DNA of 64,000 nt from an uncultured Bdellovibrionales bacterium (GCA_964491155.1 CAZBFG010000001.1:4604-68603), one strand, 5' to 3'. Counted from the stretch's first letter, positions 11,775-38,052 are shown. The notes: generated from the letters alone by a model not told the origin. A program made the numbers and translations.

Positions 11775-11824
11775 TAGCTAGAAAGAGAATGTTTTAAGGC
11801 TCAAGGGAGCCTAAAAAGATCAAA

Positions 11825-11852: not shown

Positions 11853-11994
11853 CTGATTGCGACGATGTCGCTAACTGCCCTGCTGCGTTTCATTTACCTA
11901 AGCCGATATGTCGCATCCAAATGATTTTCATCATTCGTCTTGGCGCATACCCTTTTTATAGACTTTCGTACAAATTCTACGCAGCTGTGTTCAG

Positions 11995-13617: not shown

Positions 13618-14543
13618 GGCAAACTCCTTGTCTGTAGGTTTCTGGGTGGGTCGCTCGGAAGCAACCCGGCTTGGGTTTCTTCCTTCACGGCGTCACCTTT
13701 CTTCCCGCATCCGTTGTTCGCCACAGATATGTTATGCGGCAACGACAGCACTGCGCCGACAATCATAAACGTCGCGCTGGGCACTGCCGAAGCACTACCG
13801 CATGTGACGAGTCTGTCGAGCTTATTCACGCCCTTTGTCAGGGCGCCAACATGAACGATGTCCGGCTGCGTCGAGAACACTTCCCCATCATCTCCCATCG
13901 GGAGAGGAATGGGGTAGCGTGCTTCCAGCCACACGAAGAACTTGCGTCCTGCGGGGTGGTCGCGCCGGAAATTCGAATACTCAGGAAATGGCGAGGGATG
14001 GGCGGTGAAGAACTGATTACTCAGCTCAAAGGCGCCATTCTCGATATTTACCAAAGCACCCTTGGTCGTCATGACTGTCTTGCCATCATTGAACCGGACG
14101 AGCCAGTAGCCCCGATTGTACTCCGCCACCCTTCCAGGAGGCAAGAGTACAAAAAGCTCTGTTTCGTCAGGATTCATGATGGTGTCAAACACTTCAACTC
14201 TTCCATCGACGTAGTAGGCGGTTCGCCAGACCGAACAGATGACTGGTCGAACTGACTTCCCAACCTTGTACGAGCGACTCGGGTCACGGATCTCACTGCG
14301 CCAGGCCTCAGGGAGAGGCTTGGGCAACTTGATCATGGCGACCGTGTAGCTGAAGGTCTTGGTAACATCACCACGTACTGATACGCAGCGCCACGGCAGT
14401 TGTACACCACCTTGATCGCCTTGCTTCACCTTCGTGGTCTCGATGTTGTAGCCAATATCCTCTCTGACCTCTTCGATCTTCCGATCGATACTGGCGCACC
14501 CCGTGAGGAGGGCCAGAGCGATCATACCAATGATACGCAACAT
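13614..14543 (-). CDS. Lipoprotein of unknown function, overlapping the downstream LysM gene by 4 nt
   Basis: Lipobox MLRIIGMIALALLTGCAS; a GGAG ribosome-binding site ahead of the ATG at 14543; the track start at 14609 is an upstream extension. Confidence 0.6.
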   Translation of the reverse strand: MLRIIGMIALALLTGCASIDRKIEEVREDIGYNIETTKVKQGDQGGVQLPWRCVSVRGDVTKTFSYTVAMIKLPKPLPEAWRSEIRDPSRSYKVGKSVRPVICSVWRTAYYVDGRVEVFDTIMNPDETELFVLLPPGRVAEYNRGYWLVRFNDGKTVMTTKGALVNIENGAFELSNQFFTAHPSPFPEYSNFRRDHPAGRKFFVWLEARYPIPLPMGDDGEVFSTQPDIVHVGALTKGVNKLDRLVTCGSASAVPSATFMIVGAVLSLPHNISVANNGCGKKGDAVKEETQAGLLPSDPPRNLQTRSLP

Positions 14544-20419: not shown

Positions 20420-21880
20420 TTACTCTTTGTCCTTCATTGGTGGAAAGATGACCGTCTCGCGGACGGAGCGATTCATGAGGATAGCAAACAGACGTTCACT
20501 CATCCCGAATCCACAGGCTGGTGGCATACCATACTCCAGCGCCTGGATAAAGTCTTCGTCGAGCATCATCCCCTCCTTGTCACCGGCATCACGAAGCTTC
20601 ATCTGCTCCTCAAAGCGTGCTCGCTGATCAATCGGATCATTGAGTTCTGCAAATCCGTTCCCGAGCTCACTCTTGGCCGCTATCGGCTGAAAACGAAGCG
20701 TCCGACGAGGATTCTTGGGATCACACTTCGCGAGTGGCGACACTTCGATCGGGTGCCCTACCAAGAAACATGGCTGCAGCAATTTTTGACGAACTGTTTT
20801 CTTGTACAGCGTATCAATCATGCGCCCCTTGCCATAATTCTTTTCGTATTTGATATGAAGCTCATCAGCCTTTTTCTGAAGCTGCTCGATGGTCACTTCG
20901 TGAGACAAATCAATACCCGTTTCTTTCTCAAACTCAGTAAAATAGTCGACACGCGGAAATGACGTATTCCAATCAATACTCACTCCCTCATACTCCGTGG
21001 CCATCGTTTCACCGACCACCGCACGCACGATATCTTTGTACAATCGCTCCACTAGTTCCATCCCCTGCTCCATATTCATGTAAGCAGCATAAAATTCCAT
21101 GTGATCGAACTCCTGCAGATGTTCACGGTCTATTCCCTCGTTACGAAAGACCCGACCGATCTCAAACACGCGCTCATACCCGCCGACGAGCAAACGCTTG
21201 AGCGCCAGTTCGAGCGAGATGCGCAGATAAAAGTCAGCATCCAAAGCATTGTGGTGTGTCACAAACGGTTCCGCTTCGGCGCCACCAGGAATGTGCTCGA
21301 GCACCGGCGTCTGCACTTCCAAAAATTTCTGCTCTGTCAGCACTGTTCGGACAGTCTGCCAAAACGCATTTTTCTTGATAAACAACTGTCGCGTCTCTTC
21401 ATTCATGAGCAAATCGAGATAACGACGACGGAGGAGTTCTTCCTCATCTTTCAAACCATAGAATTCTGTCGGGATTGGTCGGAGTGACTTGCAGAGCATC
21501 TGCCATGAGGCCACTCGTACTGATTTTTCATCTTGTTTGGTCAAAAAAACCGCGCCGGTGATAGCCACAAAGTCACCGAGGTCAACCGTTTCTTTAAAAA
21601 GTTTGAAGTCTGTTTCGCCTAACACTTCGAGAGAAAAAAATCCCTGAATTTTTCCACTCCCATCCTCAAGATGACAAAAGGCAATCTTGCCCATGACACG
21701 CAAGGACTTGACGCGCCCCACTACCGACACCTGAGTATCGGTGCCATTCAGGGTCTCAAAAGCATCCAAAACCTCCACGCTCGTATGGGTACGCACCACA
21801 GTATCCGGATAGGCTGTTCCGGTTGCTTGGCGTATTTTCTCAAGCTTTTCGAGTTTCGTTGTCAGAATATCTTCACGCAT
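20420..21880 (-). CDS. lysS: Lysyl-tRNA synthetase (class II)
   Basis: 486 aa; N-terminal OB anticodon-binding domain plus class II motifs 1-3 (FRNEGID, GGxERxxE-like region). Confidence 0.9.
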   Translation of the reverse strand: MREDILTTKLEKLEKIRQATGTAYPDTVVRTHTSVEVLDAFETLNGTDTQVSVVGRVKSLRVMGKIAFCHLEDGSGKIQGFFSLEVLGETDFKLFKETVDLGDFVAITGAVFLTKQDEKSVRVASWQMLCKSLRPIPTEFYGLKDEEELLRRRYLDLLMNEETRQLFIKKNAFWQTVRTVLTEQKFLEVQTPVLEHIPGGAEAEPFVTHHNALDADFYLRISLELALKRLLVGGYERVFEIGRVFRNEGIDREHLQEFDHMEFYAAYMNMEQGMELVERLYKDIVRAVVGETMATEYEGVSIDWNTSFPRVDYFTEFEKETGIDLSHEVTIEQLQKKADELHIKYEKNYGKGRMIDTLYKKTVRQKLLQPCFLVGHPIEVSPLAKCDPKNPRRTLRFQPIAAKSELGNGFAELNDPIDQRARFEEQMKLRDAGDKEGMMLDEDFIQALEYGMPPACGFGMSERLFAILMNRSVRETVIFPPMKDKE

Positions 21881-22002
21881 ATTTCAAAGTTGTTTCACCG
21901 AGCGTATGGTCACATTGTAGCCTCTCCTAAAGCAAAATGCAAGGCACAAAACGAAAGAAGTTCGACTTCCAACTGGAGGTCGAACTTCTCGAAAGAGTGA
22001 AT

Positions 22003-25949: not shown

Positions 25950-27044
25950 TTATCCCAAAGGCTTATTGTCCTCTTCTTCTATCAAAACCTCTTTCAAGTT
26001 TTCCATATCATCAAGCACAATACCCGTACCGCGCACCACCGCCGTGAGTGGGTCCTCCATCATCCGCACCGGTATCCCTGTCTGATTGGCAATCAGTTTA
26101 TCCATACCACGAATAAGGCTGCCTCCTCCTGCTAGGATAATACCGCGCTGCATGATATCTGCCAAAAGTTCCGGTGGCGTTTCTTCGACAATAGTCTTGA
26201 TATTATTGACAATAATTCGAATCGATCGTGACAGCGCCTCACGGATATGTTCGTCTGTTGCCAATACTTCTTTGGGCAAACCCGATACGAGATCACGACC
26301 GCGGAGCGGAAACGTCAGACGCTCCCGCTGCGGATACGCACTGCCGATAGCAATCTTGGCTTCCTCAGCTGTACGCTCGCCTATGAGAATATTGAATTCA
26401 TCACGACTGAAACGGACGATATCTTCATTCATCTCATCACCAGCGATACGGAGACTCCGAGAAATAACCACGCCTCCCAATGATATGACGGCAATTTCGG
26501 TCGTCCCGCCACCGATATCCACTACCATATTGCCGGCAGCATCGGTCACTGGCAAACGCGCACCGATAGCAGCTGCCATCGGCTCATCAATGAGAAAGGC
26601 CTGCCGTGCTCCGGCATTCATAGCTGCCTCCATTACCGCACGCTTCTCCACCTCTGTCACGCCCGAAGGAATACCGATGAGCACTCGAGGGCGCCGGAGA
26701 AAAGAAAAACTGTCCTGATTGACTTTGTTGATGAAATAACGAAGCATCTGTTCGGTTACTTCAAAATCGCTGATGACACCATCAACGAGTGGGCGTGTAG
26801 CCACGATATGCCCCGGTGTCTTGCCTACCATTTTCTTGGCCTCCCGGCCAATAGCCAAGATTTGCCCGGTCCGCTGATTGACCGCCACCACCGACGGTTC
26901 ATTGATCACAATCCCTCTTCCTTTGACGTAGACCAGCGTGTTAGCTGTCCCTAAATCAATCCCGATATCCTGTGACAAATGACTAAAAAACCTATCAATA
27001 AGGCCTTTTTGGAAATTTTTTATGAAGCGCTCAAAACTCGACAT
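25950..27044 (-). CDS. mreB: Rod shape-determining actin homolog MreB
   Basis: Begins MSSFERFIKNFQKGLIDRFFSHLSQDIGIDLGTANT; full actin-fold motifs; the start is trimmed to the ATG at 27044. Confidence 0.9.
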   Translation of the reverse strand: MSSFERFIKNFQKGLIDRFFSHLSQDIGIDLGTANTLVYVKGRGIVINEPSVVAVNQRTGQILAIGREAKKMVGKTPGHIVATRPLVDGVISDFEVTEQMLRYFINKVNQDSFSFLRRPRVLIGIPSGVTEVEKRAVMEAAMNAGARQAFLIDEPMAAAIGARLPVTDAAGNMVVDIGGGTTEIAVISLGGVVISRSLRIAGDEMNEDIVRFSRDEFNILIGERTAEEAKIAIGSAYPQRERLTFPLRGRDLVSGLPKEVLATDEHIREALSRSIRIIVNNIKTIVEETPPELLADIMQRGIILAGGGSLIRGMDKLIANQTGIPVRMMEDPLTAVVRGTGIVLDDMENLKEVLIEEEDNKPLG

Positions 27045-27209
27045 AGACAAAAAGAGGAGAAAAAAGTAAAAAATCAACCGGAAAACACAAAAAGGCACTC
27101 AAAAACAGGACATCCCCCATTCTATCCTATCCTTGAGAATTTTTCCAGTGTAAAAGAATAAGCCCCTCCCATATCGGGAAAAGGCTCTCCTTTCTCTTGA
27201 AGATGGTGT

Positions 27210-28601
27210 CTACTTCTTGAGGGTGATACCGAGTTCGCGAAGCTGTTCGGAAGAAATCTCGGAGGGAGCTTCCATCATCGGATCCTTACCCTCGCCCGTC
27301 TTGGCAAAGGCAATAACTTCACGAATATTTGGTTCATTCTGGAGGAGCATCATGAGACGATCAAACCCAAAGGCCAACCCTCCGTGTGGAGGCGTCCCAG
27401 AGCCAAGAGCCTGGAGCATATGACCAAAGTTCTTTTCGATACGCTCCGGAGAATATCCCATGATTTCAAAAACTTTTTTGAGCGCTTCCGGCCGGTGATT
27501 GCGAATGCCTCCACCACCGATCTCATAGCCGTTTAGTACCATGTCATACTGTGCCGCCACAATCCCGCCGATATTTTTCTCCGCCATCAAGTCTTCCATA
27601 TACTCCGGCTTGGGTGCAGAAAAAGGATTGTGTGTAAACGTCCAACCACCATCGTCAGCCTTTTCAAAAAACGGAAAGTCCACCACCCAGCAAAATGCCA
27701 GAAGATTCGGATCATTCTTGTCTTCGCGGATATCGGGCTTGTCTGAGTTATACTTCTCCATCGCTTCGGAGTAGGTCAAACGAGGAAATGGGAGCGCCTG
27801 AATTCTCTTTTCCGGATACAACTCCGTGACCAGATCCACGATCATCTTTTCATTGATGGCCATGACATCTTCTTGTGTCACAAAACTCATTTCCAAATCT
27901 ATTTGCGTAAATTCTGGCTGTCTGTCGCCACGCGTATCTTCGTCACGAAAGCACCGAGCAATCTGGAAATACCGCTCGAAGCCAGCGGACATGAGGAGCT
28001 GCTTGTACTGCTGTGGAGACTGCGGCAGCGCATAAAACTTGCCCTGATCCAGTCGCGATGGTACCACATAGTCACGCGAACCCTCTGGTGTCGACTTGGT
28101 CATGTTTGGTGTCTCAATCTCGACAAATCCTTCCTGAGTATAAAATCCCCGTACAAAATGCGTGGCGAGATGACGCTTGCGAATATTCTGTTGCATCCGA
28201 TCACGACGCAGATCGAGGTACCGATACTTCAAACGAATCTCCTCATTGATTTCCTTGCCATCAGAAGCGATATCAAACACTGGAGTCACCGCCTCATTCA
28301 GCACTGACAAAGTGAGTGCCTCTATTTCAATAGCGCCATTGGGTTGCTCGGTATTGATCAGCTTATCGGGACGAGCATTGACTTTGCCCACTACTTCAAC
28401 CACCCATTCCGGACGCAGGGTTTCAGCTACTGCTTTGGCTTCCGGGTGGTGTGGCAGAACAACCATCTGTACCTGGCCACTACTGTCACGCAAATCCAAG
28501 AAAATAAGTTTTCCATGATCTCGACGAATATGCACCCAGCCCTGAAGGGTAATTTCTTCTCCAATATGTTCTTTGGCTTCACTCACCAGTGTCCGTTTCA
28601 T
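27210..28601 (-). CDS. aspS: Aspartyl-tRNA synthetase (short, archaeal-type, probably non-discriminating)
   Basis: Begins MKRTLVSEAKEHIGEEITLQGWVH (OB fold); class II motifs (FRDE, GGGIRNH); an ATG at 28601 is preferred over 28616. Confidence 0.85.
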   Translation of the reverse strand: MKRTLVSEAKEHIGEEITLQGWVHIRRDHGKLIFLDLRDSSGQVQMVVLPHHPEAKAVAETLRPEWVVEVVGKVNARPDKLINTEQPNGAIEIEALTLSVLNEAVTPVFDIASDGKEINEEIRLKYRYLDLRRDRMQQNIRKRHLATHFVRGFYTQEGFVEIETPNMTKSTPEGSRDYVVPSRLDQGKFYALPQSPQQYKQLLMSAGFERYFQIARCFRDEDTRGDRQPEFTQIDLEMSFVTQEDVMAINEKMIVDLVTELYPEKRIQALPFPRLTYSEAMEKYNSDKPDIREDKNDPNLLAFCWVVDFPFFEKADDGGWTFTHNPFSAPKPEYMEDLMAEKNIGGIVAAQYDMVLNGYEIGGGGIRNHRPEALKKVFEIMGYSPERIEKNFGHMLQALGSGTPPHGGLAFGFDRLMMLLQNEPNIREVIAFAKTGEGKDPMMEAPSEISSEQLRELGITLKK

Positions 28602-28634
28602 AGTCATACATCTCATGCATTAAAATCCTACACG

Positions 28635-29447
28635 CTACTTCCCCTGAAAATAGTCATTGACAGCATACACCAACTGGCTGGGTGTTATTTCGGTCTTGAG
28701 AAAAGCCTGCGTCACAATACCGGCATCTTTCAACACCTTGACGCTTTCGTCTTCCATGGAAACTGATGCCGACAACAGAAATATAGGAACATTTTTCCCT
28801 TGTTCTTCGTCTCGCAATTTCTTGATGAACTCACGGCCATCCATATTGGGCATCATAACATCAGTAATGATGAGATCAAAAACTTCACTCAGTGCCGCTG
28901 CCAAACCCTGCACTCCATCTTGTTTGGCAACTACTTCATATCCTTCACTCTGCAAGCGCTTACTAAACATCTCAACAAAAACCGGCTCATCCTCAATCAA
29001 AAGAATCTTTTTCTCCAAATGTGCTCTCTCTCCCTGTGGTCGAGCATCATTGGCAGAATTTTTATCCTGCTCATTAAATTGTCGTAAAAATCGTTCAATT
29101 TCACTGACTACCTCAGAAGGTGAAAACTCTGTCTTGGAAATAAAGCCGTTGGCACCCAGTTTCAATACTTGTTCCCGATCTTCGGCACTACTCAAATTGC
29201 TAAACACTACCACTTTCAAAGTTTGGTCGTATTCCTTGTTATGACGCAGCTCTCGTAGGACTTCGATACCACTCATTTCTGGCAATACCAAATCAAGCAG
29301 AATCAAATCAAATTTTTGCTCCTGGACATACTTCAAAACAGCTTTGCCCGAAGTGGCATTGACCGTCTCAAAACCGGACGACTCCAATTTCTTTTGATAA
29401 ATCTCGGCAATAAACGGGTCATCTTCGACGAGGAGAATTTTTGCCAT
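28635..29447 (-). CDS. Response regulator with two tandem receiver domains and no output domain
   Basis: REC1 begins MAKILLVEDDP...D54-like; REC2 reads KKILLIEDEPVFVEMF...; no helix-turn-helix. Confidence 0.8.
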   Translation of the reverse strand: MAKILLVEDDPFIAEIYQKKLESSGFETVNATSGKAVLKYVQEQKFDLILLDLVLPEMSGIEVLRELRHNKEYDQTLKVVVFSNLSSAEDREQVLKLGANGFISKTEFSPSEVVSEIERFLRQFNEQDKNSANDARPQGERAHLEKKILLIEDEPVFVEMFSKRLQSEGYEVVAKQDGVQGLAAALSEVFDLIITDVMMPNMDGREFIKKLRDEEQGKNVPIFLLSASVSMEDESVKVLKDAGIVTQAFLKTEITPSQLVYAVNDYFQGK

Positions 29448-29507
29448 AGGTCATGTTGACATTTAAATCAAATGTAGGATATCAAAAAATTGGCTTATAA
29501 TCAACAT

Positions 29508-31208
29508 TTACAGACTAGCTGCCTTTCCAAGCGTCTCCACTGGGAGCTTGATGATAAACGTCGATCCCTTCCCTGAGCCTTCTGATTCGACAGAGAGCAA
29601 TCCCCCATGAGCTTCCACAAAGTTTTTGCCCACATAAAGACCAAGTCCCGTGCCGGAAACATCCAACTTCATAGTCTCCGTGCTTCTCGTGAATTTCTCA
29701 AAAAGCCGTTTACTCTCCTTTGGATCAACACCAATACCCGTATCCTTTATCCTGACAGAGACACACTTAGTATCTCCTTCAACAGTCACCGTGACACCGC
29801 CTTCTTTAGTATATTTGAGAGCATTATCGATCAAATTGGAAACCACTTCACGAATCTTATTCACGTCCAGTGTCAATTTTGGCAGAGACTTGTTCGGCAG
29901 CTTGATCTTGAGTGATAATTTTTTCTCTTTGGCCATGATCGTGAACATATCGACGATATCAGCCACAATCGGTTCCAGTTGGGCTTCGACAAAATTGTAC
30001 TGCACCCGACCGGATTCAATACGAGAAATACTAAGGAGATCCTCGACCAACTGACCCATGCGATTGTTCACTATATACACTTTGTTCAAAACATCCTGGA
30101 GTGTCATGGGAACTTTGCCATATGAACCCTCAAGTATGAGCGAAACATAACCCTTGATAGCTGTCAGTGGCGTCCTGAGCTGATGCGAAGCGATCGAAAT
30201 AAATTCCGATTTTGCCGCATCCAAACGTTTCAATTCGTTGTTTGCAATGGCCAACTCCTGCGTCAACGCCTGTAATTCCTCCTTACGCTTCACTTCTTCC
30301 TTAACAGATCGAATGAGTATAATTCCAAAGATAGAAGCCAGGATAAAGGTAGTGGCAACCAGTATGTAACTCGTCATCTCCCGGATAAAGAACAGCTGTG
30401 ATCCGATCAAAGATATAAGCCCCACCACCAATGCCTGAGCCCCAATAAGTTTTAGATTAAAAGCCTGATACTTCACAATCAAATAGGTAAGAAACCCAAG
30501 AAAAACCGGCATTCCAAAAAGTCCATACTGAAGAATTTTCCAATTATCTGGATCATCGGGATTGATAACCGAAGCAATACTCCCAGCTATATTCGCCCCG
30601 GAAAAAGAAAGAAGGAATAATACCGAACCAAGAACAAGATATACGGCTTGAACTCGAGCAGAATCTCGCGTTTTAAATATTTTCCAAATTCCATATCCAA
30701 GTAAAGTCAGAAAAAATACCACCTCAAGGAAATAAAAATAGTTAACAAGCACTCCTTGCTGCGCTTCACAAAGAGTCGCATTAAAACCAGTTATATTGTA
30801 TTGTGTGGGCAAAAGAACAAGAAAAGGAACAAAAAGCAAAGCGAATACTGCTTTATATCGCATTGCCAAATCTCGCTTTTCAATGAAAACATAGACGAAA
30901 TACACTGTGAGACAACTCACCATGTTTTCAAGAAGATTAATTATCGACCAAAAAAACATCGTTTTCCGACTGTCAGGACTACTCCAGAGAATCAAATCAA
31001 AGGCAGACCAAAGAGCGAAAAGAACTGTCACCAAAAAAAACAGCCTACTCGAGAGATCTTTTTTATTCTTAAAGAAAATAAACAGTCCCAAAAGCAAAGT
31101 GACAATCGCCGTTGGAATGTGAGAATAATACAAAATCACATTACCACTCAAAATAGAGTCCATTATTGCCTTGCAATATTCCGAGTTTGTAACAAGATTG
31201 AAATTCAT
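29508..31208 (-). CDS. Sensor histidine kinase with an N-terminal ~8-TM sensor domain
   Basis: Polytopic N-terminus, a coiled coil, the HisKA motif (SHQLRTPLTAIKGY) and a HATPase_c domain (N, G1, G2 boxes). Confidence 0.8.
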   Translation of the reverse strand: MNFNLVTNSEYCKAIMDSILSGNVILYYSHIPTAIVTLLLGLFIFFKNKKDLSSRLFFLVTVLFALWSAFDLILWSSPDSRKTMFFWSIINLLENMVSCLTVYFVYVFIEKRDLAMRYKAVFALLFVPFLVLLPTQYNITGFNATLCEAQQGVLVNYFYFLEVVFFLTLLGYGIWKIFKTRDSARVQAVYLVLGSVLFLLSFSGANIAGSIASVINPDDPDNWKILQYGLFGMPVFLGFLTYLIVKYQAFNLKLIGAQALVVGLISLIGSQLFFIREMTSYILVATTFILASIFGIILIRSVKEEVKRKEELQALTQELAIANNELKRLDAAKSEFISIASHQLRTPLTAIKGYVSLILEGSYGKVPMTLQDVLNKVYIVNNRMGQLVEDLLSISRIESGRVQYNFVEAQLEPIVADIVDMFTIMAKEKKLSLKIKLPNKSLPKLTLDVNKIREVVSNLIDNALKYTKEGGVTVTVEGDTKCVSVRIKDTGIGVDPKESKRLFEKFTRSTETMKLDVSGTGLGLYVGKNFVEAHGGLLSVESEGSGKGSTFIIKLPVETLGKAASL

Positions 31209-31244
31209 AGATATTTACACTATTTATATTTTTTACACCATCAG

Positions 31245-32099
31245 TCACTCGCTTTCTTTCATTATAGCAGAAACAACGGTCTTATATTCTTCCGGATAAT
31301 ACCTCCAATAAACATCTTCTTCAGTCTCTGCCGGAACAAGCCTCACAATAAGAGGTCTAACGCCAAAATCAGCAACTATACTCCTATATGTAGGTAAAAG
31401 AATGTTTTTTGTAAGATCACTATAAAATCCGCTCAAGAGGAAATTCTCAAAAAGAACGCCATGACAAATAAAAATTGAAAGGATATATCTATAGTATCTA
31501 CTTGCCTGCCCTCCATTTCTAGCATAATACTCAGACATATCAATTCTATTTTCAGATCCTAAAATAGAAGAAACTATACTGTGATGAAAATTAACAAGGC
31601 TTGTACCTGAAATAATTTTTACATCAGAAATTTTTTTTCCATCAAAAAAATCAAAATCCACAGCTTTTACAGACGATATTTTTCTGCCGCCCTTCTTGCC
31701 GAGTCCTTCATAAAAAACCATTTTTCCTAGATAATATTTATCCTCATTCTTGGTTACAAACTTATCACTGAGATACTCAAATCCTACCGGATCAATACCT
31801 ATACTCTTAACAGATTCTAAAAAATTTATAAGCTCAAAATTTGGACTCATGACATGCCGAGAGATCACTGCTCTCGGGGAAAGCTTCACTACTTCTGGAA
31901 TATCTTGCCCTAAGAATTCTTCTATTTTTGATTTTAACGCCGCATTATTCCACCGCTTCTTTATCTCTTCCTTTGCTTCATCAAGTGACATGTATATAGA
32001 ATCCAGCTCTGCTCTTGCATTCAAATCTTCTTGCGACATAAGACAGACACTATTATTCTCCAGTATTACTCTCAACATTCGTCTCGGGAAATTCCGCAC
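31245..32099 (-). CDS. Hypothetical cytoplasmic protein (AT-rich gene)
   Basis: 284-aa ORF with no recognisable motif; GC roughly 33%. The start is uncertain (GTG 32099, ATG 32078 or ATG 32039) and the first two options overlap the upstream gene. Confidence 0.45.
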   Translation of the reverse strand: MRNFPRRMLRVILENNSVCLMSQEDLNARAELDSIYMSLDEAKEEIKKRWNNAALKSKIEEFLGQDIPEVVKLSPRAVISRHVMSPNFELINFLESVKSIGIDPVGFEYLSDKFVTKNEDKYYLGKMVFYEGLGKKGGRKISSVKAVDFDFFDGKKISDVKIISGTSLVNFHHSIVSSILGSENRIDMSEYYARNGGQASRYYRYILSIFICHGVLFENFLLSGFYSDLTKNILLPTYRSIVADFGVRPLIVRLVPAETEEDVYWRYYPEEYKTVVSAIMKESE

Positions 32100-32553
32100 T
32101 CATCACTTCCTCTTCGGGCTCCAAAACCTCAACTGGCGCATTGAGCATGTTGTACGCTTCCGGATCACTACACTCTGATCCATCCTCCAAACTCGCATCA
32201 CAAAGAGTTATCACACATCCAACTTCATCTTCCTTACACTCAAGTGGCACACAGTCTTCGCTAGCAGGATCACACAGTGGGATATTCTTAGCATTTCTAT
32301 CAATCAGCTTATAATACGAAGTATCTGCCACTGGATCACCTGTGCATTCCTCTACGGTCGCATCACAATGGTACACAAAACAAGCCTCAGTCGTAGGATC
32401 GCACTCTATCTGTGATTGAAGAGGATAGTCTCGTAGAATAAAAAACCGATAGAAAGACAACCCGATTGAAATCGTTGTAGCAATAACAAACACCGCAATT
32501 AGTACCCTGCTACTCCTCTTTACCACAGCATCGCTCTTTGTCTCGATTTCCAT
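32053..32553 (-). CDS. Single-pass membrane protein with a Cys-rich acidic ectodomain
   Basis: TM helix VLIAVFVIATTISIGLSFYRFFIL; about 14 Cys residues in a ~110-aa extracytoplasmic region; acidic C-terminus. Confidence 0.5.
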   Translation of the reverse strand: MEIETKSDAVVKRSSRVLIAVFVIATTISIGLSFYRFFILRDYPLQSQIECDPTTEACFVYHCDATVEECTGDPVADTSYYKLIDRNAKNIPLCDPASEDCVPLECKEDEVGCVITLCDASLEDGSECSDPEAYNMLNAPVEVLEPEEEVMSAEFPETNVESNTGE

Positions 32554-32562
32554 AAAAAAATT

Positions 32563-33516
32563 TTAACTAATCAAGTATATCCCTATCGCAATAATACAAC
32601 ATGCGATGATTTTTGTCTTAAAAGCGACCAGCTGATCTTGATAAATCTGCCTGGATTTCTCTCTATTTGTCTTCAAAAAGATTACGACGAGCAGTAAACT
32701 GAGTACCATTACAAACACTGGCGCCAAGCTTCCGATAACAGCAACAAATGATACGGCCGGACTCAGATCGATGGCTCGCTGCAAAGCCACAACAGCCAAT
32801 AAATTCAAAACTTCAGCGAGAACAAAAACGAGGAAGAAATTCCGACTGATATCGTAGATATGTTTCATCCGAGAGCCTATCGACTTATGATCGAGCAGAG
32901 ATATGAGCAAGCCACTCACGGTAGCTCCAATGGAAAAAAGCAAAAAGCAGCTCCAAAAATCATTCCCTGTCGCTTGAAATGCCATCGTTTGAAACACCAT
33001 GCTTAGGGAAAGGAAAACAAAGGCTCCTATCATCAGGGAAAACACTTTCCCAAAGTTTTTTTCTTTAATTTCACCATGAAATGAAAATAGCATGGCTCCT
33101 GCAAAGGCTATAGCAATACCGATATAGTGCATCACAGATAACTGCTCCCCCACAAGAAGCCAGGCCAAAAATGGTACCAATGGAACGCTCAAATTAGCCA
33201 GCGCCTGCACCACTACCATATCATTCGAGACAAATAGAGTCTTGAAGTAAAAGTAATAGGAGAACATAAGAAAAGCACCGCTTGAGAAAGCGATGCCGGC
33301 AACTGTCCAACCTGGAAAAATAAATTCTACGAGTCCAAATAAAGGAAGGAGCCACGGGAGGAGCTGGAAGAGTGCATTGATGATAACACCGTCCCACTCA
33401 TCCTCATATACACCGCTCACAAAGTAGATGTCTATGATATTCACAAGAGCCCAAAAGAATGGCGCTAGAAATGCGACAAAAATCCAATGACTCCATAAAT
33501 ACCCAAAAAAATCCAT
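32563..33516 (-). CDS. DMT-superfamily (EamA-like) 10-TM permease
   Basis: 317 aa with two repeated 5-TM halves. Confidence 0.6.
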   Translation of the reverse strand: MDFFGYLWSHWIFVAFLAPFFWALVNIIDIYFVSGVYEDEWDGVIINALFQLLPWLLPLFGLVEFIFPGWTVAGIAFSSGAFLMFSYYFYFKTLFVSNDMVVVQALANLSVPLVPFLAWLLVGEQLSVMHYIGIAIAFAGAMLFSFHGEIKEKNFGKVFSLMIGAFVFLSLSMVFQTMAFQATGNDFWSCFLLFSIGATVSGLLISLLDHKSIGSRMKHIYDISRNFFLVFVLAEVLNLLAVVALQRAIDLSPAVSFVAVIGSLAPVFVMVLSLLLVVIFLKTNREKSRQIYQDQLVAFKTKIIACCIIAIGIYLIS

Positions 33517-33539
33517 ATCTGAGAAAAGAAAAATTCTTC

Positions 33540-33929
33540 CTACACAATATCTTGAAGAGGATATTTCTTACCGCGTTCGATAAAATTAACTTCTGTATCT
33601 TTCAGATCAAACTGTTTCACAAAATAGTTGATAATATGATCCTGTGAAAGACCATTCTTGCAGGTATAGACGTCGATACTGACGAAACCACGGGCTGGAA
33701 AGGTATGAATACTGATATGACTCTCGGCGATGACAGTAAATCCACTCCAGCCACCCGGGTCTTTCTTGTCATTTCCCTCAGCAAAGTACACTTCCGGACC
33801 GGCAAGAATATGCATATCGAGCATATCCGGTAAACCTTTGAGACAGTTTAGAACGAGCTCTTTGTCATTCAACTTCTCGTAATTCCCACCATATCCATCC
33901 AACGTCAAGTGCTCACCAAAATGCGTCAT
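33540..33929 (-). CDS. speH: S-adenosylmethionine decarboxylase proenzyme (class 1b, SpeH-like)
   Basis: AESHISIHTFP self-processing motif; about 130 aa when started at MTHFGEHLTLDGYG; the track start at 34019 is TTG. Confidence 0.75.
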   Translation of the reverse strand: MTHFGEHLTLDGYGGNYEKLNDKELVLNCLKGLPDMLDMHILAGPEVYFAEGNDKKDPGGWSGFTVIAESHISIHTFPARGFVSIDVYTCKNGLSQDHIINYFVKQFDLKDTEVNFIERGKKYPLQDIV

Positions 33930-34047
33930 AAAACAAGAGAAAAAATATATTTCACCAACAGAAAAATAATAACACAAAAACACATTTTTGGAAAGAAAAA
34001 AGGACTGCAACTTGTGCAACCCCGTTGAAGTTTAGTAGCCCTCGTGG

Positions 34048-34584
34048 CTACTTCCGTAAACGCAGCACATCGCTGCAGAACCTCTCGGCACATAGCGTGC
34101 CGCGTGTCTTGAAGTCCCGGCTCCCCTGCCGCAGATCGGTCACGAACGGAAAGGACTGTTCGATTTCAAAGTCGACCCCGTACTTCGGAGTGCTGCCCTT
34201 GTCCGCCGAGAGTAACCAGACCTTGAAACGGTAGGAATGCCTGGCATCAAAACACCAGTTTTCCCGATTCAAGCTCTTTGACACGAAGAACCAGCGCTCG
34301 TTTTTCTCGTCACCATCCCGCGCGTGAACAACAAATCCGTGATTCCCCGGTGTGTTGAGGAAAAACGTGCCGATGCAGAACGATCTTGCATTGGAGCGCG
34401 GACTGATGTCAAACTCCACCTCACTGTCCCGAAAAATCGCCGACCACAACTCGGTCTGTGGGGTAGGGGCGATGGAGGATGAATAGACACGAACGTCCGT
34501 GTGGTAACCAGGGTAATCAGCCGGCGTTTGCGCACGCGCCGCCACCGAAACCAGCAAGCAAAGAACCATGGCGATGAGTTGCAT
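34048..34584 (-). CDS. Secreted hypothetical protein, in high-GC cassette 2
   Basis: Signal peptide MQLIAMVLCLLVSVAARAQTPAD; an AGGAGG ribosome-binding site; own promoter at 34620-34648 (TTGACT-17-TATGGT) and terminator. Confidence 0.6.
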   Translation of the reverse strand: MQLIAMVLCLLVSVAARAQTPADYPGYHTDVRVYSSSIAPTPQTELWSAIFRDSEVEFDISPRSNARSFCIGTFFLNTPGNHGFVVHARDGDEKNERWFFVSKSLNRENWCFDARHSYRFKVWLLSADKGSTPKYGVDFEIEQSFPFVTDLRQGSRDFKTRGTLCAERFCSDVLRLRK

Positions 34585-34619
34585 CGCTTCCTCCTATGCG
34601 TCACGGATTGTGACTGTTC

Positions 34620-34648
34620 ACCATAACCTGAAATAAGAAAAAAGTCAA
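34620..34648 (-). promoter_or_regulatory. Sigma70-type promoter TTGACT-17-TATGGT for 34048-34584
   Basis: The minus strand reads cttgacttttttcttatttcaggttatggt. Confidence 0.45.
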
Positions 34649-34677
34649 GAAAAAACAGAGGAGCTGGAAACCCTCTG
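34645..34677 (-). terminator. Intrinsic terminator after the acidic protein gene
   Basis: On the minus strand, cagaggg-tttccagc-tcctctg is followed by ttttttctt. Confidence 0.55.
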
Positions 34678-34706
34678 CTTTTCTTTCTGTCTATCCTCCC
34701 CTTGTG

Positions 34707-36101
34707 TTATTTCCCGATGTTGAAGAACCAACCCAAGAGACTGAGGCGATCACGCTGACCTCCCACAAAATTCTGTAACTTCGATGTCTGTGCCTTGAGC
34801 ACTTCGACCTGATCAAGGATGATGGATTTCATGTCCTGATCTTCCACGGCCTCAGCTGCTTTCAGCAAGGACTCCGTACGAGTCTTGTTCGCAGCGATTT
34901 CTTGTTCCAAGCTATTCAAATCAGCATCACTGGCGCCAAACAATGCCTGCAAGACCGGATTGCGCTTGTCGACTTCTTTGACAGTCTCACCAATCTTCTT
35001 GGTAGCATCCTTATGGTCATCAGCGATACGACGGATTGCCCGTCCAACGTTGTCATCTTCAATATCAGCCACATCATTCAGGTGTTCAGCAATATCGTCA
35101 CTTTCGTCCTCCAGATCATCGTCGAGCTCTTCGTCCGTACCACCCAAGGCATAGATCATTCCTTCAACACTACTCTTGAGACGCTTGACCTTGCGCTCCA
35201 AGGCATCAAGAGAATCCTCCATCGCAGCCAAATCATATCCACCTGCAGCGATAGTAGCCTTGAGTGCTGCCAAATCAGACTCATACGACGCAAGAGTAGA
35301 CTTCACAGAACTACTATCACCTCCAACCGCTTCTAACAAAGCAATCTTGCCATTCGTTTGAGTAATCCGCTTGGCTACTTTGGCGACATCTTCAGCAACT
35401 TCCTTGGCATCATGCAAATCGTCGTTACGAGCGAAATGAGCCAATTTCTTCACTTCTTTGCTCAGCTGCTTGGCAGCTTCAAGATCATTACTATCAAACG
35501 CACCGCCCACTGTTGCTGCCATTATCTTGGCTTCGGCCAATCGAGCCAGGGCCGCCGTCACATCCACTCCTTCAGCCTGCTTCTCGAGAATTTCCTTTTC
35601 TGCTTCAGCAAGTTCTTTATCGAGCTTTGAAAGGGTCTTGGCACGATCCTTGTACATGCCATTGTCACTTCCCTTTCGGTCATCTCCGTCCTCATCCTCC
35701 AATTCGTCAACTCCGTTTTCATCACTGTCATCGTCTGCATCATCACTGTCATCATCCAAGTCATCTAATCCGTCATCGTCGGAAGTCTTTCCTGATCGCT
35801 CAGCCGCTTTCTTGAGCGTTTCACGCTCTCGCTCGGCTTTCTTTTTAGCTTCTTCCTTGGCTTTCTTCTCAGACTTCGACTCCTTATCATCATCTTTATC
35901 TTCGTCATCATCCTTGTCTTCGTCACTATCATCACCCCCATCATCATCTCCATCATCACCGCTCCCACTTTCAGCCAATGAAGTAGGAATGAAATTTAAA
36001 CCATTTTGAGTTGCCAGAGCCATGATACCAACGAACCCACCAAACGAAAGCACTGCTACCAACAATGCCGGCAACAGAGCGACTTTTTTCTTCTCAGACA
36101 T
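34707..36101 (-). CDS. Membrane-anchored, extremely acidic coiled-coil protein
   Basis: N-terminal TM helix; poly-Asp/Glu tracts (GDDGDDDGGDDSDEDKDDDEDKDDD); long heptad-like helical repeats; encoded by GAT/GAC-rich low-complexity DNA. Confidence 0.6.
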   Translation of the reverse strand: MSEKKKVALLPALLVAVLSFGGFVGIMALATQNGLNFIPTSLAESGSGDDGDDDGGDDSDEDKDDDEDKDDDKESKSEKKAKEEAKKKAERERETLKKAAERSGKTSDDDGLDDLDDDSDDADDDSDENGVDELEDEDGDDRKGSDNGMYKDRAKTLSKLDKELAEAEKEILEKQAEGVDVTAALARLAEAKIMAATVGGAFDSNDLEAAKQLSKEVKKLAHFARNDDLHDAKEVAEDVAKVAKRITQTNGKIALLEAVGGDSSSVKSTLASYESDLAALKATIAAGGYDLAAMEDSLDALERKVKRLKSSVEGMIYALGGTDEELDDDLEDESDDIAEHLNDVADIEDDNVGRAIRRIADDHKDATKKIGETVKEVDKRNPVLQALFGASDADLNSLEQEIAANKTRTESLLKAAEAVEDQDMKSIILDQVEVLKAQTSKLQNFVGGQRDRLSLLGWFFNIGK

Positions 36102-36201
36102 ACTTTTTATTTTTATGGCAAGTAGAACAAATTAAAAACCTACTCACCTTATATATTTCTCAGACGTAGTATAGCACAAAATCTTACAGAAACCGTCGCT
36201 C

Positions 36202-36846
36202 CTACTCAGTGGCCGCATTTTCTATGGCTTTTTTAAACGCATCCACACTACTTGGGTTCTCAAGCTTTTTCCCATTCAAAAAGAATGATGGTGTTCCTGA
36301 TATCTTGAGTTCGTTTCCAGTTGCACGGTCTTGATTGATTTTTTCATCCAAAGACGAATCATTCATGTCTTGTTTGAATTTTTCCACATCAATACCAACC
36401 CGGGTAGCGTAGGCAGGAAAAATACTCTTGGTTGGATCATCAGCGCTTGACCATTCTTTCTGATTGGTAAAAAGCATATCGTACATTTCCCAAAACTTCC
36501 CCTGACGGCCAGCTGCCTCCGCGGCCCGCGAGCTCGGTAACGCGTTTTTATGGATCTGAATGAGTGGATAATGACGCACCACAAACTTCATCTTTCCTTC
36601 TAGCTCTTTTGAAAGCTGATCAATGATAGGATGGTATGCCGCACAAGCCGGGCACTGAAAATCAGTATATTCTACCAACGTTACCGGAGCCCCAGCATCG
36701 CCTTTGACTCTGTCTTGCTCCGTGAGAGCGATTGGCCCGCCAAGAGCGACTGATCCTTCATTTTCTCCGGAAAACCCGTACTGCCAAACCGTAAACCCAA
36801 TAAACCCAACTAACGCTACCAATCCCAGCTTTATCAATGCACCCAT
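36202..36846 (-). CDS. DsbA-like thiol:disulfide oxidoreductase (thioredoxin fold), membrane anchored
   Basis: N-terminal TM helix; CPAC active site within FQCPACAAYHP. Confidence 0.75.
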   Translation of the reverse strand: MGALIKLGLVALVGFIGFTVWQYGFSGENEGSVALGGPIALTEQDRVKGDAGAPVTLVEYTDFQCPACAAYHPIIDQLSKELEGKMKFVVRHYPLIQIHKNALPSSRAAEAAGRQGKFWEMYDMLFTNQKEWSSADDPTKSIFPAYATRVGIDVEKFKQDMNDSSLDEKINQDRATGNELKISGTPSFFLNGKKLENPSSVDAFKKAIENAATE

Positions 36847-36894
36847 AGGTATTATGCTTTCAGAAGTTATTCTCTCTCCCTATGATACTCCTTT

Positions 36895-38052
36895 TCAATT
36901 TCCTTTGGCAAGAAAGACATTTACGGTCTCACCTGCTGCCTTTCCCCAAGAAAACCGAGCTGCTTGTGCCAACCCATCCTGTTGCATCCGTGCTGAGAGC
37001 TCCTGATTTTCCAAAACGGACTGCAGTGCCAGATATAGCTCCTCCGGCTGGTAGGGATCGATCATGATACTGGCTTTTCCTACTACTTCAGAAAGAGCCG
37101 AGGAATGACTGGTCACCACTGGGACGCCGCAGGCCATCGCTTCAAGCGGCGGAAATCCGAAACCCTCGTAAAAAGATGGATAAACAAACACGCTAGCCAA
37201 ATTATACAACGCCACCTTGTCTTCATCGGCGATAAATCCAGGGAGTCGGATACGATCTCTGTAGAGCGATGACTCGCAGGCAACAAATACATCCTGACAC
37301 TCCCAGCCGCGCGTACCGGCCAATACCAAATCGTGTTTCTTCGAAATATCATTTCCCGTGCGAAGCAGTGCTTCATACCCATGAATGAGCGAGCTCATAT
37401 TCTTCCGCGGTTCAAATGTCCCCAAAAAGAGGATAAACCGATATGGGAGATAATACTTTTCTTTAACACGCAAAAGCTCGGGGTCATTGCGATCCAACCG
37501 ATGGAAGCGTTTTTCGATGCCGCTGTGAACAACCGTGATCTTTTCCGCCGGCACCCGGTATTCTGTCACTAGATCCCCCTTGGTGGAATGAGAGACGGCA
37601 ATCACGCGATCAGCCCGACGCACCAAACTCCGGAAATTCACTAGGAAATGCCATATACGCTGCTTCCAAGAAAACATCTCTGGAAACCACTCAAATGACA
37701 CATCATGTGCCGTTACTACCAGTTCCGTATCTCGTGATACCGCAGCAAAGTTCAAATTGGGAAGAAAAAACACATCCGTACCTCCGACCAAGCGATCAAG
37801 CTTGGGAAAACCAAAATACCAAAGCGATAGATTGAACAGCTTGTTCGGAAAATGAAATACGCGGAGCGTAACGTTTGGGTACACCTCTACCCATGAAAAA
37901 TCCACTTCTTCGCTGCGCCAAGCATTGAAAAAGAGGATATACTCATTCGTCTGATCACGCTCAAAGACCGCTTTCAAAAGCGCTAGGGTATACTCTTCTA
38001 CCCCAGTACGCTTCCCCTCTGCCAAACACCGTATGTCTATTCCGATACGCAT
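36895..38052 (-). CDS. GT4-family glycosyltransferase
   Basis: Begins MRIGIDIRCLAEGKRTGVEEYT; GT1 C-terminal EGFGFPPLEAMACGVPVV; the ATG at 38052 lies 3 nt after the upstream stop. Confidence 0.8.
   Translation of the reverse strand: MRIGIDIRCLAEGKRTGVEEYTLALLKAVFERDQTNEYILFFNAWRSEEVDFSWVEVYPNVTLRVFHFPNKLFNLSLWYFGFPKLDRLVGGTDVFFLPNLNFAAVSRDTELVVTAHDVSFEWFPEMFSWKQRIWHFLVNFRSLVRRADRVIAVSHSTKGDLVTEYRVPAEKITVVHSGIEKRFHRLDRNDPELLRVKEKYYLPYRFILFLGTFEPRKNMSSLIHGYEALLRTGNDISKKHDLVLAGTRGWECQDVFVACESSLYRDRIRLPGFIADEDKVALYNLASVFVYPSFYEGFGFPPLEAMACGVPVVTSHSSALSEVVGKASIMIDPYQPEELYLALQSVLENQELSARMQQDGLAQAARFSWGKAAGETVNVFLAKGN

What the first reader, a model, noticed from the sequence alone, without database searches (positions are those of the whole stretch)
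28635..32553. AT-rich segment with a 7TM-sensor histidine kinase, a REC-REC regulator without an output domain, and two unknown genes including a Cys-rich ectodomain protein
The HK (29508-31208) has an about 8-TM N-terminal sensor. Its partner (28635-29447) consists only of two receiver domains, so signalling must proceed by phosphorelay or protein-protein interaction rather than DNA binding. Immediately upstream on the same strand are an overlapping pair of roughly 33% GC genes: a 284-aa cytoplasmic protein with no detectable motif (31245-32099) and a single-pass membrane protein with about 14 Cys in the ectodomain (32053-32553). Then come a DMT permease and SAM decarboxylase. The overlap and the shared low GC of the two unknown genes suggest a co-acquired functional pair.
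Basis: partly seen in the sequence, partly recalled or inferred. Interest (0 to 1): 0.5.

Follow-up and report, generated by a model that had tools for sequence, protein, structure and literature searches.

The report
Polyamine-linked sensor kinase operon in Patescibacteria
The two "unknown" genes belong to large uncharacterised protein families that, across candidate-phyla-radiation bacteria, sit in a conserved operon with a membrane permease and a multi-pass sensor kinase; the cytoplasmic one is also found next to polyamine-synthesis genes in unrelated phyla, so it is a good lead to an undescribed polyamine-related function rather than a recently imported AT-rich island.

Summary
The genes are real, but several details in the finding are wrong. 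The "284-aa" protein is most likely 264 aa, starting at ATG 32039, so it does not overlap the Cys gene. The Cys protein has 10 invariant cysteines, not 14. Only the 264-aa gene (U264) and the 5' half of the kinase gene are AT-rich; the Cys gene is 44% GC.

In 57 of 74 informative loci, U264 lies just upstream of an orthologous roughly 9-TM histidine kinase. The Cys-rich ectodomain protein accompanies 45 of those 57. Either an EamA permease or a new 4-TM protein is usually present, never both. In kinase-less loci from other phyla, U264 sits beside SpeD, SpeE, pyruvoyl arginine decarboxylase, HSS-like or SpeY-like genes, and it is found fused to SET or GNAT domains.

Best reading: a vertically inherited, polyamine-linked sensing and transport operon. 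U264's chemistry is unknown.

The parts
33966..33994 (-). Promoter-like site (TTTCCA, 17 nt, TATTAT, with TG) just upstream of the SpeD-homologue start; the likely operon start
   Evidence: This is a consensus match only: the number of promoter-like sites in the region is no higher than in shuffled sequence.
33540..33929 (-). SpeD/AdoMetDC homologue (129 aa, pyruvoyl-type decarboxylase). Its substrate is unresolved: SAM, ornithine or arginine.
   Evidence: Pfam AdoMet_dc 85.8 bits. TIGR03330 scores 78.2 against a cutoff of 75.65. It differs from SpeE-linked SpeDs by a 7-residue insertion and by HTFP/VYTC in place of HTWPE/VFTC. CPR SpeD homologues are often ornithine or arginine decarboxylases (PMC10407285).
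32563..33516 (-). EamA/DMT-type permease (317 aa, about 10 hydrophobic segments)
   Evidence: Pfam EamA 23.1 bits, below the cutoff of 28.2. Orthologues in L006 and L012 carry PF00892 hits. It is present in 32 of 57 HK-linked loci and never together with the V175 family.
32053..32553 (-). Cys-rich single-pass membrane protein (166 aa). It has an N-in signal anchor at about residues 17-35 and a disulfide-type ectodomain with 10 invariant Cys (spacing 6-4-6-23-6-4-6-4-9, a CDPxxExC unit repeated twice). The acidic tail has 11 D/E and no K/R.
31245..32039 (-). U264: 264-aa cytoplasmic protein of a new family with a distant HUP (class I aaRS / nucleotidyltransferase-like) Rossmann fold. Conserved polar residues: Y16, R29, D92, N98, K101, H152, Y183, E198, N199.
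29508..31208 (-). Sensor histidine kinase (566 aa). About 9 TM segments, no large extracytoplasmic domain, and Cys12 and Cys147 on the predicted outer face (C147 invariant; C12 is conserved in 6 of 7 orthologues and the seventh, L003, has a truncated N-terminus). These are followed by a coiled coil, HisKA (His342) and HATPase_c.
   Evidence: The sensor region and H342 are invariant in orthologues down to 30% identity.
28635..29447 (-). REC-REC response regulator (270 aa) with no output domain. REC1 has D9/D10, D52, S83, K105. REC2 has E152/D153, D196, S226, K251.
   Evidence: Pfam Response_reg, 2 stretches, 161 bits. Residues read from the sequence. REC-REC in L003 and, judging by the length of the REC-hit ORF, in L015 and L018-L020; single REC in L001.
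27210..28607 (-). Class II aaRS (AspRS-type), last gene of the same tightly spaced transcription unit. It is probably a syntenic passenger.
   Evidence: Near the module in 15 of 57 HK-linked loci.
27160..27187 (-). Terminator-like hairpin (11 pairs) after AspRS; the likely operon end

Best explanation
The segment is a vertically inherited seven-gene operon of a Patescibacteria (Moranbacteria-like) genome: SpeD homologue, EamA permease, Cys-rich ectodomain protein, U264, roughly 9-TM histidine kinase, REC-REC regulator, AspRS. It is not an imported island.

U264 is the founding member of a large uncharacterised family. It has a divergent HUP/Rossmann fold and a conserved polar site that is the same whether or not a kinase is present. 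I infer that it binds or modifies a small amine metabolite of the polyamine pathway (putrescine, agmatine, spermidine or homospermidine, or a derivative). The reaction may depend on an adenine nucleotide. U264 works together with a membrane permease, either EamA or the alternative 4-TM protein V175, that moves that compound across the membrane.

In Patescibacteria this core is wired to a receptor. The kinase has almost no extracytoplasmic domain. I infer that it uses the membrane-anchored, disulfide-rich, acidic Cys protein as an external co-sensor and receives cytoplasmic input from U264, whose gene is directly adjacent. The kinase then phosphorylates the output-less REC-REC protein, which acts by protein-protein contact or as a phosphate relay or sink.

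Shown: gene content, family conservation, fold class, synteny statistics, fusions and the association with polyamine genes.

Inferred: ligand identity, catalysis as opposed to binding, physical contacts, and the direction of signalling.
For: - Conserved module. Of 74 loci with at least 1.5 kb downstream of U264, 57 have the orthologous HK within 3 kb on the same strand, 51 of them directly adjacent. In those 57 loci Cys occurs in 45, EamA in 32 and SET in 6.
- Tight spacing. The gap between U264 and the HK ranges from an 11-nt overlap to 49 nt in gene calls.
- HK orthology. The sensor TM region, H342 and the ATPase boxes are invariant.
- Cys pairs with the HK. L083 and L084 carry Cys-U264-HK-Cys-HK, and Cys occurs in only 1 of 17 HK-less loci.
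- Alternative membrane partners. EamA (33 loci) and V175 (29 loci) never co-occur.
- Polyamine link in independent arrangements and phyla:
  - L043: SpeD, SpeE, U264, U264.
  - L049: PvlArgDC, V175, U264, SET, SET.
  - L039: saccharopine-dehydrogenase-type 473-aa enzyme (HSS/CASDH-like), V175, U264.
  - L008: SpeY-like, SET, U264.
  - L032 and L016: SpeD directly upstream of U264.
  - Window, L001 and L015-L020: SpeD at the head of the operon.

- In all, 20 of 83 unique loci carry a polyamine-biosynthesis gene within about 7 kb. My rough expectation by chance is 2-7%.
- Fusions to amine-modifying domains: three U264-SET and three GNAT-U264 among the 10 long members scanned, plus further SET fusions.
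- The same polar residues are conserved in 62 HK-linked and 17 HK-less copies.
- Confident model with a HUP-type fold. The conserved residues lie just after the predicted parallel strands (56-61, 83-88, 194-197), the usual ligand site of Rossmann-like folds.
- Operon signals and 9-60 nt intergenic gaps.
- A DsbA-like gene lies 3.6 kb upstream, consistent with extracytoplasmic disulfide formation.
- Purifying selection: dN about 0.2 with dS saturated.
Against: - Polyamine genes are present in only about a quarter of loci, and part of that signal within Patescibacteria is shared ancestry rather than independent events.
- The EamA Pfam hit in the window is below threshold. V175 has no annotation.
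- SET and GNAT also fit a protein-lysine-modification reading.
- Most HK-linked loci have no adjacent RR (REC in 12 of 57).
- AspRS in the same operon shows that streamlined genomes pack unrelated genes together.
- Taxon labels of many MAG contigs are automatic and may be wrong.
Confidence: 0.45

Rival explanations
1. U264 is purely a cytoplasmic adaptor or regulator of the kinase, analogous to PhoU linking the Pst transporter to PhoR. It would relay the transport state of the EamA permease and have no enzymatic role.
For: The HK lacks an extracytoplasmic domain. The U264 gene is directly adjacent to the HK gene or overlaps it. A permease gene is in the same operon.
Against: U264 also occurs without any HK in 17 loci. 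There it has the same conserved polar residues and is fused to SET or GNAT enzymes. That argues for an intrinsic ligand-binding or catalytic function independent of the kinase.
Confidence: 0.15
2. The U264 core belongs to a protein-lysine modification pathway. SET would methylate, GNAT would acetylate, and the deoxyhypusine-synthase homologue would transfer an aminobutyl group from spermidine. U264, whose best structural neighbour is class I lysyl-tRNA synthetase, would recognise or activate the lysine-containing target.
Against: The DS-like proteins score best against the homospermidine-biosynthesis (SpeY) model, not deoxyhypusine synthase. PvlArgDC, SpeE and the HSS-like neighbours point to free polyamines. 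The obligatory membrane partner (EamA or V175) fits transport of a small molecule better. The LysRS similarity is generic to the HUP fold, since BshC, ATP sulfurylase and NMNAT score similarly.
Confidence: 0.15
3. There is no functional connection. The genes are neighbours only because streamlined Patescibacteria genomes keep long syntenic, densely packed transcription units.
For: AspRS, clearly unrelated, is in the same unit. Many loci come from related Patescibacteria lineages.
Against: Adjacency survives rearrangement: SET or Cys is inserted between U264 and the HK in L066, L070 and L075, Cys-HK is duplicated in L083 and L084, and the Cys gene changes position in L003 and L016. Adjacency persists down to 30-35% identity. 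Gene fusions exist. Associations recur in other phyla in different gene orders.
Confidence: 0.1
4. One reading: an AT-rich, recently co-acquired pair of overlapping genes (horizontal transfer) inserted next to an orphan two-component system.
For: U264 is the GC minimum of the window, 3.5 sd below the mean, with GC3 of 0.275.
Against: The Cys gene has 44% GC. The overlap is a start-codon artefact. The same gene order is found in relatives with 47-73% identical U264. U264 is the lowest-GC gene of its block in six other genomes, with U264 GC from 27% to 48%.
Confidence: 0.03

Closest known systems
Histidine kinases without an external domain that sense through accessory proteins or transporters: PhoR with PhoU/PstSCAB, BceS with BceAB, LiaS with LiaF, WalK with YycH/YycI (from my own knowledge)
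   Same: A polytopic kinase with short external loops is encoded with a transporter-like membrane protein, a single-pass membrane protein with an ectodomain, and a small cytoplasmic protein.
   Different: None of the accessory proteins here is homologous to PhoU, BceAB, LiaF or YycHI (no Pfam or NCBIfam hits). The sensor domain is a roughly 9-TM HisKA_7TM-like module. No interaction has been tested.
NspS-MbaA polyamine sensing in Vibrio cholerae (from my own knowledge)
   Same: An extracytoplasmic accessory protein plus a membrane signal transducer would report on external polyamines.
   Different: NspS is a periplasmic binding-protein homologue and MbaA is a GGDEF-EAL protein. Here the parts are a disulfide-rich acidic ectodomain of unknown fold and a histidine kinase. 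Polyamine binding is only inferred.
BshC (PDB 4wbd) and class I lysyl-tRNA synthetase (PDB 1irx), HUP-class Rossmann folds
   Different: Sequence identity is 6-13%. There is no HIGH or KMSKS motif, no profile hit to any PDB sequence and no Foldseek hit. U264 is a stand-alone 250-300 aa protein.
Polyamine biosynthetic gene clusters with neofunctionalised SpeD (SpeDC/SpeDA), HSS and SpeY (Li et al. 2023, PMC10407285)
   Same: The same taxa are involved (CPR, Nitrospirota, delta-Proteobacteria) and the same enzymes flank U264.
   Different: A term search of that paper found no mention of a histidine kinase and no 'hypothetical' protein beyond the authors' 'hypothetical model'. A term search of the 2026 SpeY paper found none of SET domain, hypothetical, candidate phyla, Patescibacteria or histidine kinase. 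I did not read either paper in full.
FrzZ of Myxococcus xanthus, a dual-receiver response regulator without an output domain (from my own knowledge)
   Same: REC-REC architecture, with output through protein-protein interaction.
   Different: No specific homology was tested. Close relatives carry a single REC in the same position (L001), so the duplication is lineage-specific.

Membership tests
HisKA-type sensor histidine kinase | HisKA dimerisation/phospho-acceptor domain with the conserved His | tested here: met
   PF00512 scores 61.8 bits against a cutoff of 26.9. H342 in SHQLRTPL is invariant in 7 orthologues.
HisKA-type sensor histidine kinase | HATPase_c catalytic domain with N and G boxes | tested here: met
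   PF02518 scores 92.5 bits against a cutoff of 26.4. N458/N462, D489-G491-G493 and G521-G523 are invariant.
HisKA_7TM (PF16927) sensor module | Pfam model above the gathering score | tested here: inconclusive
   The window protein scores 26.8 bits against a cutoff of 28.6. The L001 orthologue carries an unmarked precomputed PF16927 hit and L003 a weak one. Distant orthologues have none.
Response regulator (CheY-like receiver) | Receiver fold with the acidic pocket, phospho-acceptor Asp, Ser/Thr and Lys | tested here: met
   Two Response_reg stretches, 161 bits. REC1 has D9/D10, D52, S83, K105. REC2 has E152/D153, D196, S226, K251, read from the sequence.
Response-regulator transcription factor (OmpR, NarL or NtrC type) | DNA-binding or other output domain | tested here: not met
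   Pfam finds only REC. All NCBIfam transcription-factor models score far below cutoff and match only the receiver part.
HUP superfamily (class I aaRS / nucleotidyltransferase-like Rossmann fold) | Overall fold similarity | tested here: met
HUP superfamily (class I aaRS / nucleotidyltransferase-like Rossmann fold) | HIGH / (H/T)xGH and KMSKS / ISSTxxR nucleotide-binding motifs | tested here: not met
   By inspection of alignment A1, the loop after the first core strand reads RxxxSPNxE. No KMSKS-like motif is present.
Cyclodipeptide synthase | Close fold match and the catalytic Ser/Tyr/Glu/Tyr pocket | tested here: inconclusive
DMT/EamA permease | EamA repeat(s) and about 10 TM segments | tested here: inconclusive
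   PF00892 scores 23.1 bits against a cutoff of 28.2, with one repeat matched. There are about 10 hydrophobic segments. Orthologues in L006 and L012 carry unmarked PF00892 hits.
Class 1b AdoMetDC/SpeD (pyruvoyl decarboxylase) | Family model plus the processing Ser, His and Cys | tested here: met
   PF02675 scores 85.8 bits and TIGR03330 78.2 against a cutoff of 75.65. ESH...IHT...YTC are present. The residue roles are as given in PMC10407285.
Class 1b AdoMetDC/SpeD (pyruvoyl decarboxylase) | SAM as substrate (bona fide AdoMetDC, with a SpeE partner) | not testable with these tools
   No SpeE was found among the fetched loci of the window's group. The sequence differs from SpeE-linked SpeDs. 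The diagnostic positions of Li et al. are given only in their Figure 8.

The most novel reading that the evidence does not exclude
U264 founds a new enzyme family of polyamine metabolism, for example an adenylate-forming ligase or another amine-modifying step acting on putrescine, agmatine or homospermidine. Its product is exported by EamA or V175. In Patescibacteria a dedicated receptor, made of the roughly 9-TM kinase plus the disulfide-rich acidic co-receptor, senses that polyamine-derived compound. This would give these episymbiotic bacteria a polyamine-based self- or host-sensing circuit.
Probability: 0.22. Interest if true: 0.8.

Novelty: new variant of a known kind. Interest (0 to 1): 0.62.

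Why it matters
Patescibacteria (CPR) make up a large part of bacterial diversity, have very few signalling systems, and most of their conserved genes have no known function. This analysis points to one of their few conserved two-component modules and names three uncharacterised partner families: U264, the Cys-rich ectodomain protein and V175.

It also gives U264 a testable functional context, polyamine metabolism, that holds across Patescibacteria, Nitrospirota, Desulfobacterota and other phyla. If U264 is a missing polyamine enzyme or sensor, it would extend recent work on the unusual polyamine pathways of these lineages. It would also give a handle on how ultra-small episymbionts sense their surroundings.

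Tried and rejected
- Sequence-family searches for U264 and the Cys protein gave nothing: Pfam, NCBIfam, PHROGs, PADLOC, a Pfam scan of all 65 alignment members, and a PDB profile search at E <= 10.
- Foldseek against the PDB gave no significant hit for U264. The AFDB50 library was unavailable.
- Rfam scan of 27000-37000 at E <= 0.1 found no RNA family, so no riboswitch sits in front of the operon.
- The weak VTT/DedA hit for one V175 member was not reproduced in 10 others. I dropped the DedA reading.
- I considered U264 as a non-homologous replacement for spermidine synthase. This is unlikely because L043 has a SpeE gene directly beside U264.
- I considered a SAM-centred reading (MetK, SET, SpeD, EamA as a SAM transporter). 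I weakened it after finding PvlArgDC and HSS-like neighbours, and after Li et al. showed that CPR SpeD homologues are often not SAM decarboxylases.
- dN/dS could not be computed as a ratio because synonymous sites are saturated.
- The first search for related loci attempt with the 65-sequence alignment failed for lack of a conserved stretch. It worked with 18 closer sequences.
- Literature searches found no description of this module.


Full report
**1. What is in the sequence**

All genes of the finding lie on the minus strand and are tightly spaced.

| Gene | Coordinates | Product |
|---|---|---|
| SpeD homologue | 33540-33929 | 129 aa |
| EamA-like permease | 32563-33516 | 317 aa |
| Cys-rich protein | 32053-32553 | 166 aa |
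| Unknown cytoplasmic protein (U264) | 31245-32039 | 264 aa |
| Histidine kinase | 29508-31208 | 566 aa |
| REC-REC regulator | 28635-29447 | 270 aa |
| AspRS-type synthetase | 27210-28607 | about 465 aa |

Intergenic gaps are 9-60 nt. A promoter-like site lies just upstream of the SpeD homologue (33994-33966). A terminator-like hairpin follows AspRS (27187-27160). The window is identical to part of ENA contig k141_762857 (117 kb), and the gene calls there agree with these coordinates.

**2.

*Kinase and regulator.* Pfam confirms HisKA and HATPase_c in the kinase, with a sub-threshold HisKA_7TM match. It finds two receiver domains and nothing else in the regulator. Both receivers keep the acidic pocket, the phospho-acceptor Asp (D52, D196), the Ser and the Lys.

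*Start codon and overlap.* The 284-aa reading frame is the longest ORF from a GTG. The ENA gene call for this contig is the 264-aa protein from ATG 32039 (P0001, 100% identical). Homologues begin near that position. In the nearest relative the frame is closed upstream of it (L015). The claimed overlap with the Cys gene is therefore most likely an artefact, although one pipeline does call the 284-aa form.

*Cysteine count.* The Cys protein has 10 cysteines, not about 14. All 10 are invariant in 40 aligned homologues. The spacing is 6-4-6-23-6-4-6-4-9, which looks like a duplicated CDPxxExC-x4-C-x6-C unit plus one extra pair.

*Base composition.* U264 has GC 0.350 and GC3 0.275. The lowest 800-bp window of the whole 64 kb (0.336; mean 0.483, sd 0.042) sits on U264 and the 5' end of the kinase gene. 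The Cys gene is 0.443.

**3. The low GC is not a sign of recent transfer**

U264 is the lowest-GC gene of its block in six of the seven other genomes I compared. Its own GC in those six ranges from 0.27 to 0.48. The same gene order (SpeD, EamA, Cys, U264, HK, RR, AspRS) is kept in relatives whose U264 is 47-73% identical.

Against the closest relative, both unknown genes have dN of about 0.2 with synonymous sites saturated. They are coding and under purifying selection.

**4. U264**

U264 belongs to a large family. There are 755 representatives at the 50% clustering level with E <= 1e-3 and 549 hits at the 90% level with a profile. Every source that names them calls them 'hypothetical protein'.

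No Pfam, NCBIfam, PHROG, PADLOC or PDB sequence match exists, either for the protein itself or for 65 members scanned individually.

AlphaFold2 with the family alignment gives a very confident model (pLDDT 96.9, pTM 0.92). It has an N-terminal helical bundle, then an alpha/beta core.

Foldseek finds nothing. The HIGH and KMSKS motifs are absent.

The invariant or near-invariant polar residues are Y16, R29, R61, D92, N98, K101, H152, Y183, E198 and N199. Most lie just after the predicted core strands, where Rossmann-like proteins bind ligands. This last point is an inference; I had no coordinates.

**5. Neighbourhood survey**

I fetched 77 loci from species-representative genomes and 14 from metagenome contigs. 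I annotated them with HMMs built here.

- Of 74 loci with enough downstream sequence, 57 (77%) have the orthologous kinase within 3 kb on the same strand. In 51 it is directly adjacent.
- In gene calls, the gap between U264 and the kinase ranges from an 11-nt overlap to 49 nt.
- The kinase is one orthologous family. Its membrane region (YYSHIP motif, W75, W87, C147, N156), His342 and the ATPase boxes are invariant down to 30% identity.
- Among the 57 kinase-linked loci, the Cys-rich gene is present in 45 and EamA in 32.
- The Cys gene is nearly absent from kinase-less loci (1 of 17). In L083 and L084 a second Cys-HK pair occurs without U264. The Cys protein therefore belongs with the kinase.
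- A further uncharacterised family of small proteins with about four hydrophobic segments (V175; motifs KDWLGIE, FDPFITT, RDWKIF; no Pfam hit) sits next to U264 in 29 of 83 unique loci. It never occurs together with EamA (33 loci). The two membrane proteins look like alternatives for one role.

**6. The polyamine link**

In kinase-less loci U264 is flanked by polyamine enzymes in different arrangements. These loci are labelled Thermodesulfovibrionales, Nitrospirae, Desulfobacterales, Desulfobulbaceae, Syntrophobacteraceae, Verrucomicrobia and others.

| Locus | Gene order |
|---|---|
| L043 | SpeD, SpeE, U264, U264 |
| L049 | pyruvoyl arginine decarboxylase, V175, U264, SET, SET |
| L039 | 473-aa saccharopine-dehydrogenase-type enzyme, V175, U264 |
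| L008 | deoxyhypusine-synthase homologue, SET, U264 |
| L032 | SpeD, U264 |

For L039, the match of this Pfam architecture and length to homospermidine synthase or carboxyspermidine dehydrogenase is from my own knowledge. For L008, the homologue's best NCBIfam match is the homospermidine-biosynthesis protein, below cutoff.

Overall, 20 of 83 unique loci have such a gene within about 7 kb.

Of the ten long family members scanned, three carry a C-terminal SET domain and three an N-terminal GNAT domain. SET or GNAT genes are also frequent neighbours.

Li et al. 2023 (PMC10407285) showed that SpeD homologues in CPR, Nitrospirota and delta-Proteobacteria are often neofunctionalised ornithine or arginine decarboxylases. 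These cluster with HSS, SpeY or CASDH/CASDC. The window's SpeD homologue differs from the SpeE-linked ones by a 7-residue insertion and by HTFP/VYTC in place of HTWPE/VFTC. It passes the AdoMetDC NCBIfam model only marginally (78.2 against 75.65). Its substrate is open, but it is a polyamine-pathway decarboxylase either way.

The conserved polar residues of U264 are equally conserved in 62 kinase-linked and 17 kinase-less copies. U264 therefore has one biochemical function whatever its context.

**7. The receptor side**

By hydropathy and the positive-inside rule, the kinase has about 9 TM segments. Its N-terminus is outside and its external loops are only short. Cys12 (conserved in 6 of 7 orthologues) and the invariant Cys147 lie on the predicted outer face.

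The Cys-rich protein is an N-in signal-anchor protein. Its ectodomain is confidently modelled (pLDDT about 90 or more) but has no structural relative in the PDB. The ectodomain is strongly acidic, with 32 D/E against 5 K/R. Across the family the C-terminal tail is variable, acidic and of low complexity.

A DsbA-like gene lies 3.6 kb upstream.

**8. Interpretation**

The best-supported picture has two layers.

- **Core.** U264 plus a permease (EamA or V175), often with SET or GNAT and polyamine-biosynthesis genes. This core is found in several phyla.
- **Receptor.** In Patescibacteria a receptor made of the roughly 9-TM kinase and the Cys-rich co-sensor is attached to that core. In the Moranbacteria-like lineage it feeds a receiver-only regulator.

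I infer that U264 binds or modifies a polyamine-pathway amine, that the permease moves it, and that the kinase integrates an external signal through the Cys protein and an internal one through U264.

The association statistics, fusions and fold class are shown. The ligand, the catalysis and the contacts are inferred.

Each is weighed in its own section of the report. The last is contradicted by the data.

**9. Novelty**

Full-text searches found no description of this module or of the U264, Cys-rich or V175 families. The two-component core is ordinary. The accessory set and the polyamine association appear to be new.

Noticed in passing
window 34048-34584 (-): A 178-aa ORF with a signal-peptide-like N-terminus and unusually high GC (0.555; GC3 0.69). 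It has its own promoter-like (34648-34620) and terminator-like (34023-34001) sites. It is not called in the ENA gene calls, has no family hit, and has no homologue in any of the 91 fetched loci. It could be a lineage-specific secreted protein or a spurious ORF.
   Followed up: partly
window 34707-36101 (-): A 464-aa protein with an N-terminal TM anchor, long D/E-rich low-complexity stretches and coiled coil. It is conserved upstream of the operon in close relatives (L018, L020, L038, L083, L084). It has no family assignment.
   Followed up: partly
window 36202-36846 (-): A DsbA/thioredoxin-like protein with a signal anchor, three to four genes upstream of the Cys-rich protein. It is a plausible oxidase for the five predicted disulfides.
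   Followed up: no
L030:7815-8333, L043:2545-3195, L049:6257-6931, L010:5086-5655 and about 25 other loci (not in the window): V175 is a new family of 170-220-aa proteins with about four hydrophobic segments (motifs KDWLGIE, FDPFITT, RDWKIF) and no Pfam hit. It is adjacent to U264 in 29 of 83 unique loci and mutually exclusive with EamA.
   Followed up: partly
window 33540-33929 (-) compared with L032, L035, L043, L051, L056: SpeD homologues split into a classical group (SpeE-linked in L035, L043 and L056) and a window-type group with a 7-residue insertion and HTFP/VYTC. The window enzyme may be an ornithine or arginine decarboxylase rather than a SAM decarboxylase.
   Followed up: partly
L012/L077, L035, L043, L044: Tandem or near-tandem U264 paralogues, for example U264-EamA-U264-109aa-HK in L012. 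This suggests hetero-oligomers or subfunctionalisation.
   Followed up: no
L083 and L084: A duplicated Cys-HK pair: Cys-U264-HK-Cys-HK-REC-AspRS.
   Followed up: no
window 20423-21883 (-) and 27210-28607 (-): Two class II tRNA-synt_2 synthetase genes (AspRS, AsnRS or LysRS type) within 8 kb. Their identities were not resolved.
   Followed up: no
window 8001-9000 and 9001-14000: A 1-kb stretch has strongly negative GC skew (-0.35) and AT skew (-0.34). It is followed by a 5-kb region of raised GC (0.54-0.59) against a window mean of 0.48.
   Followed up: no
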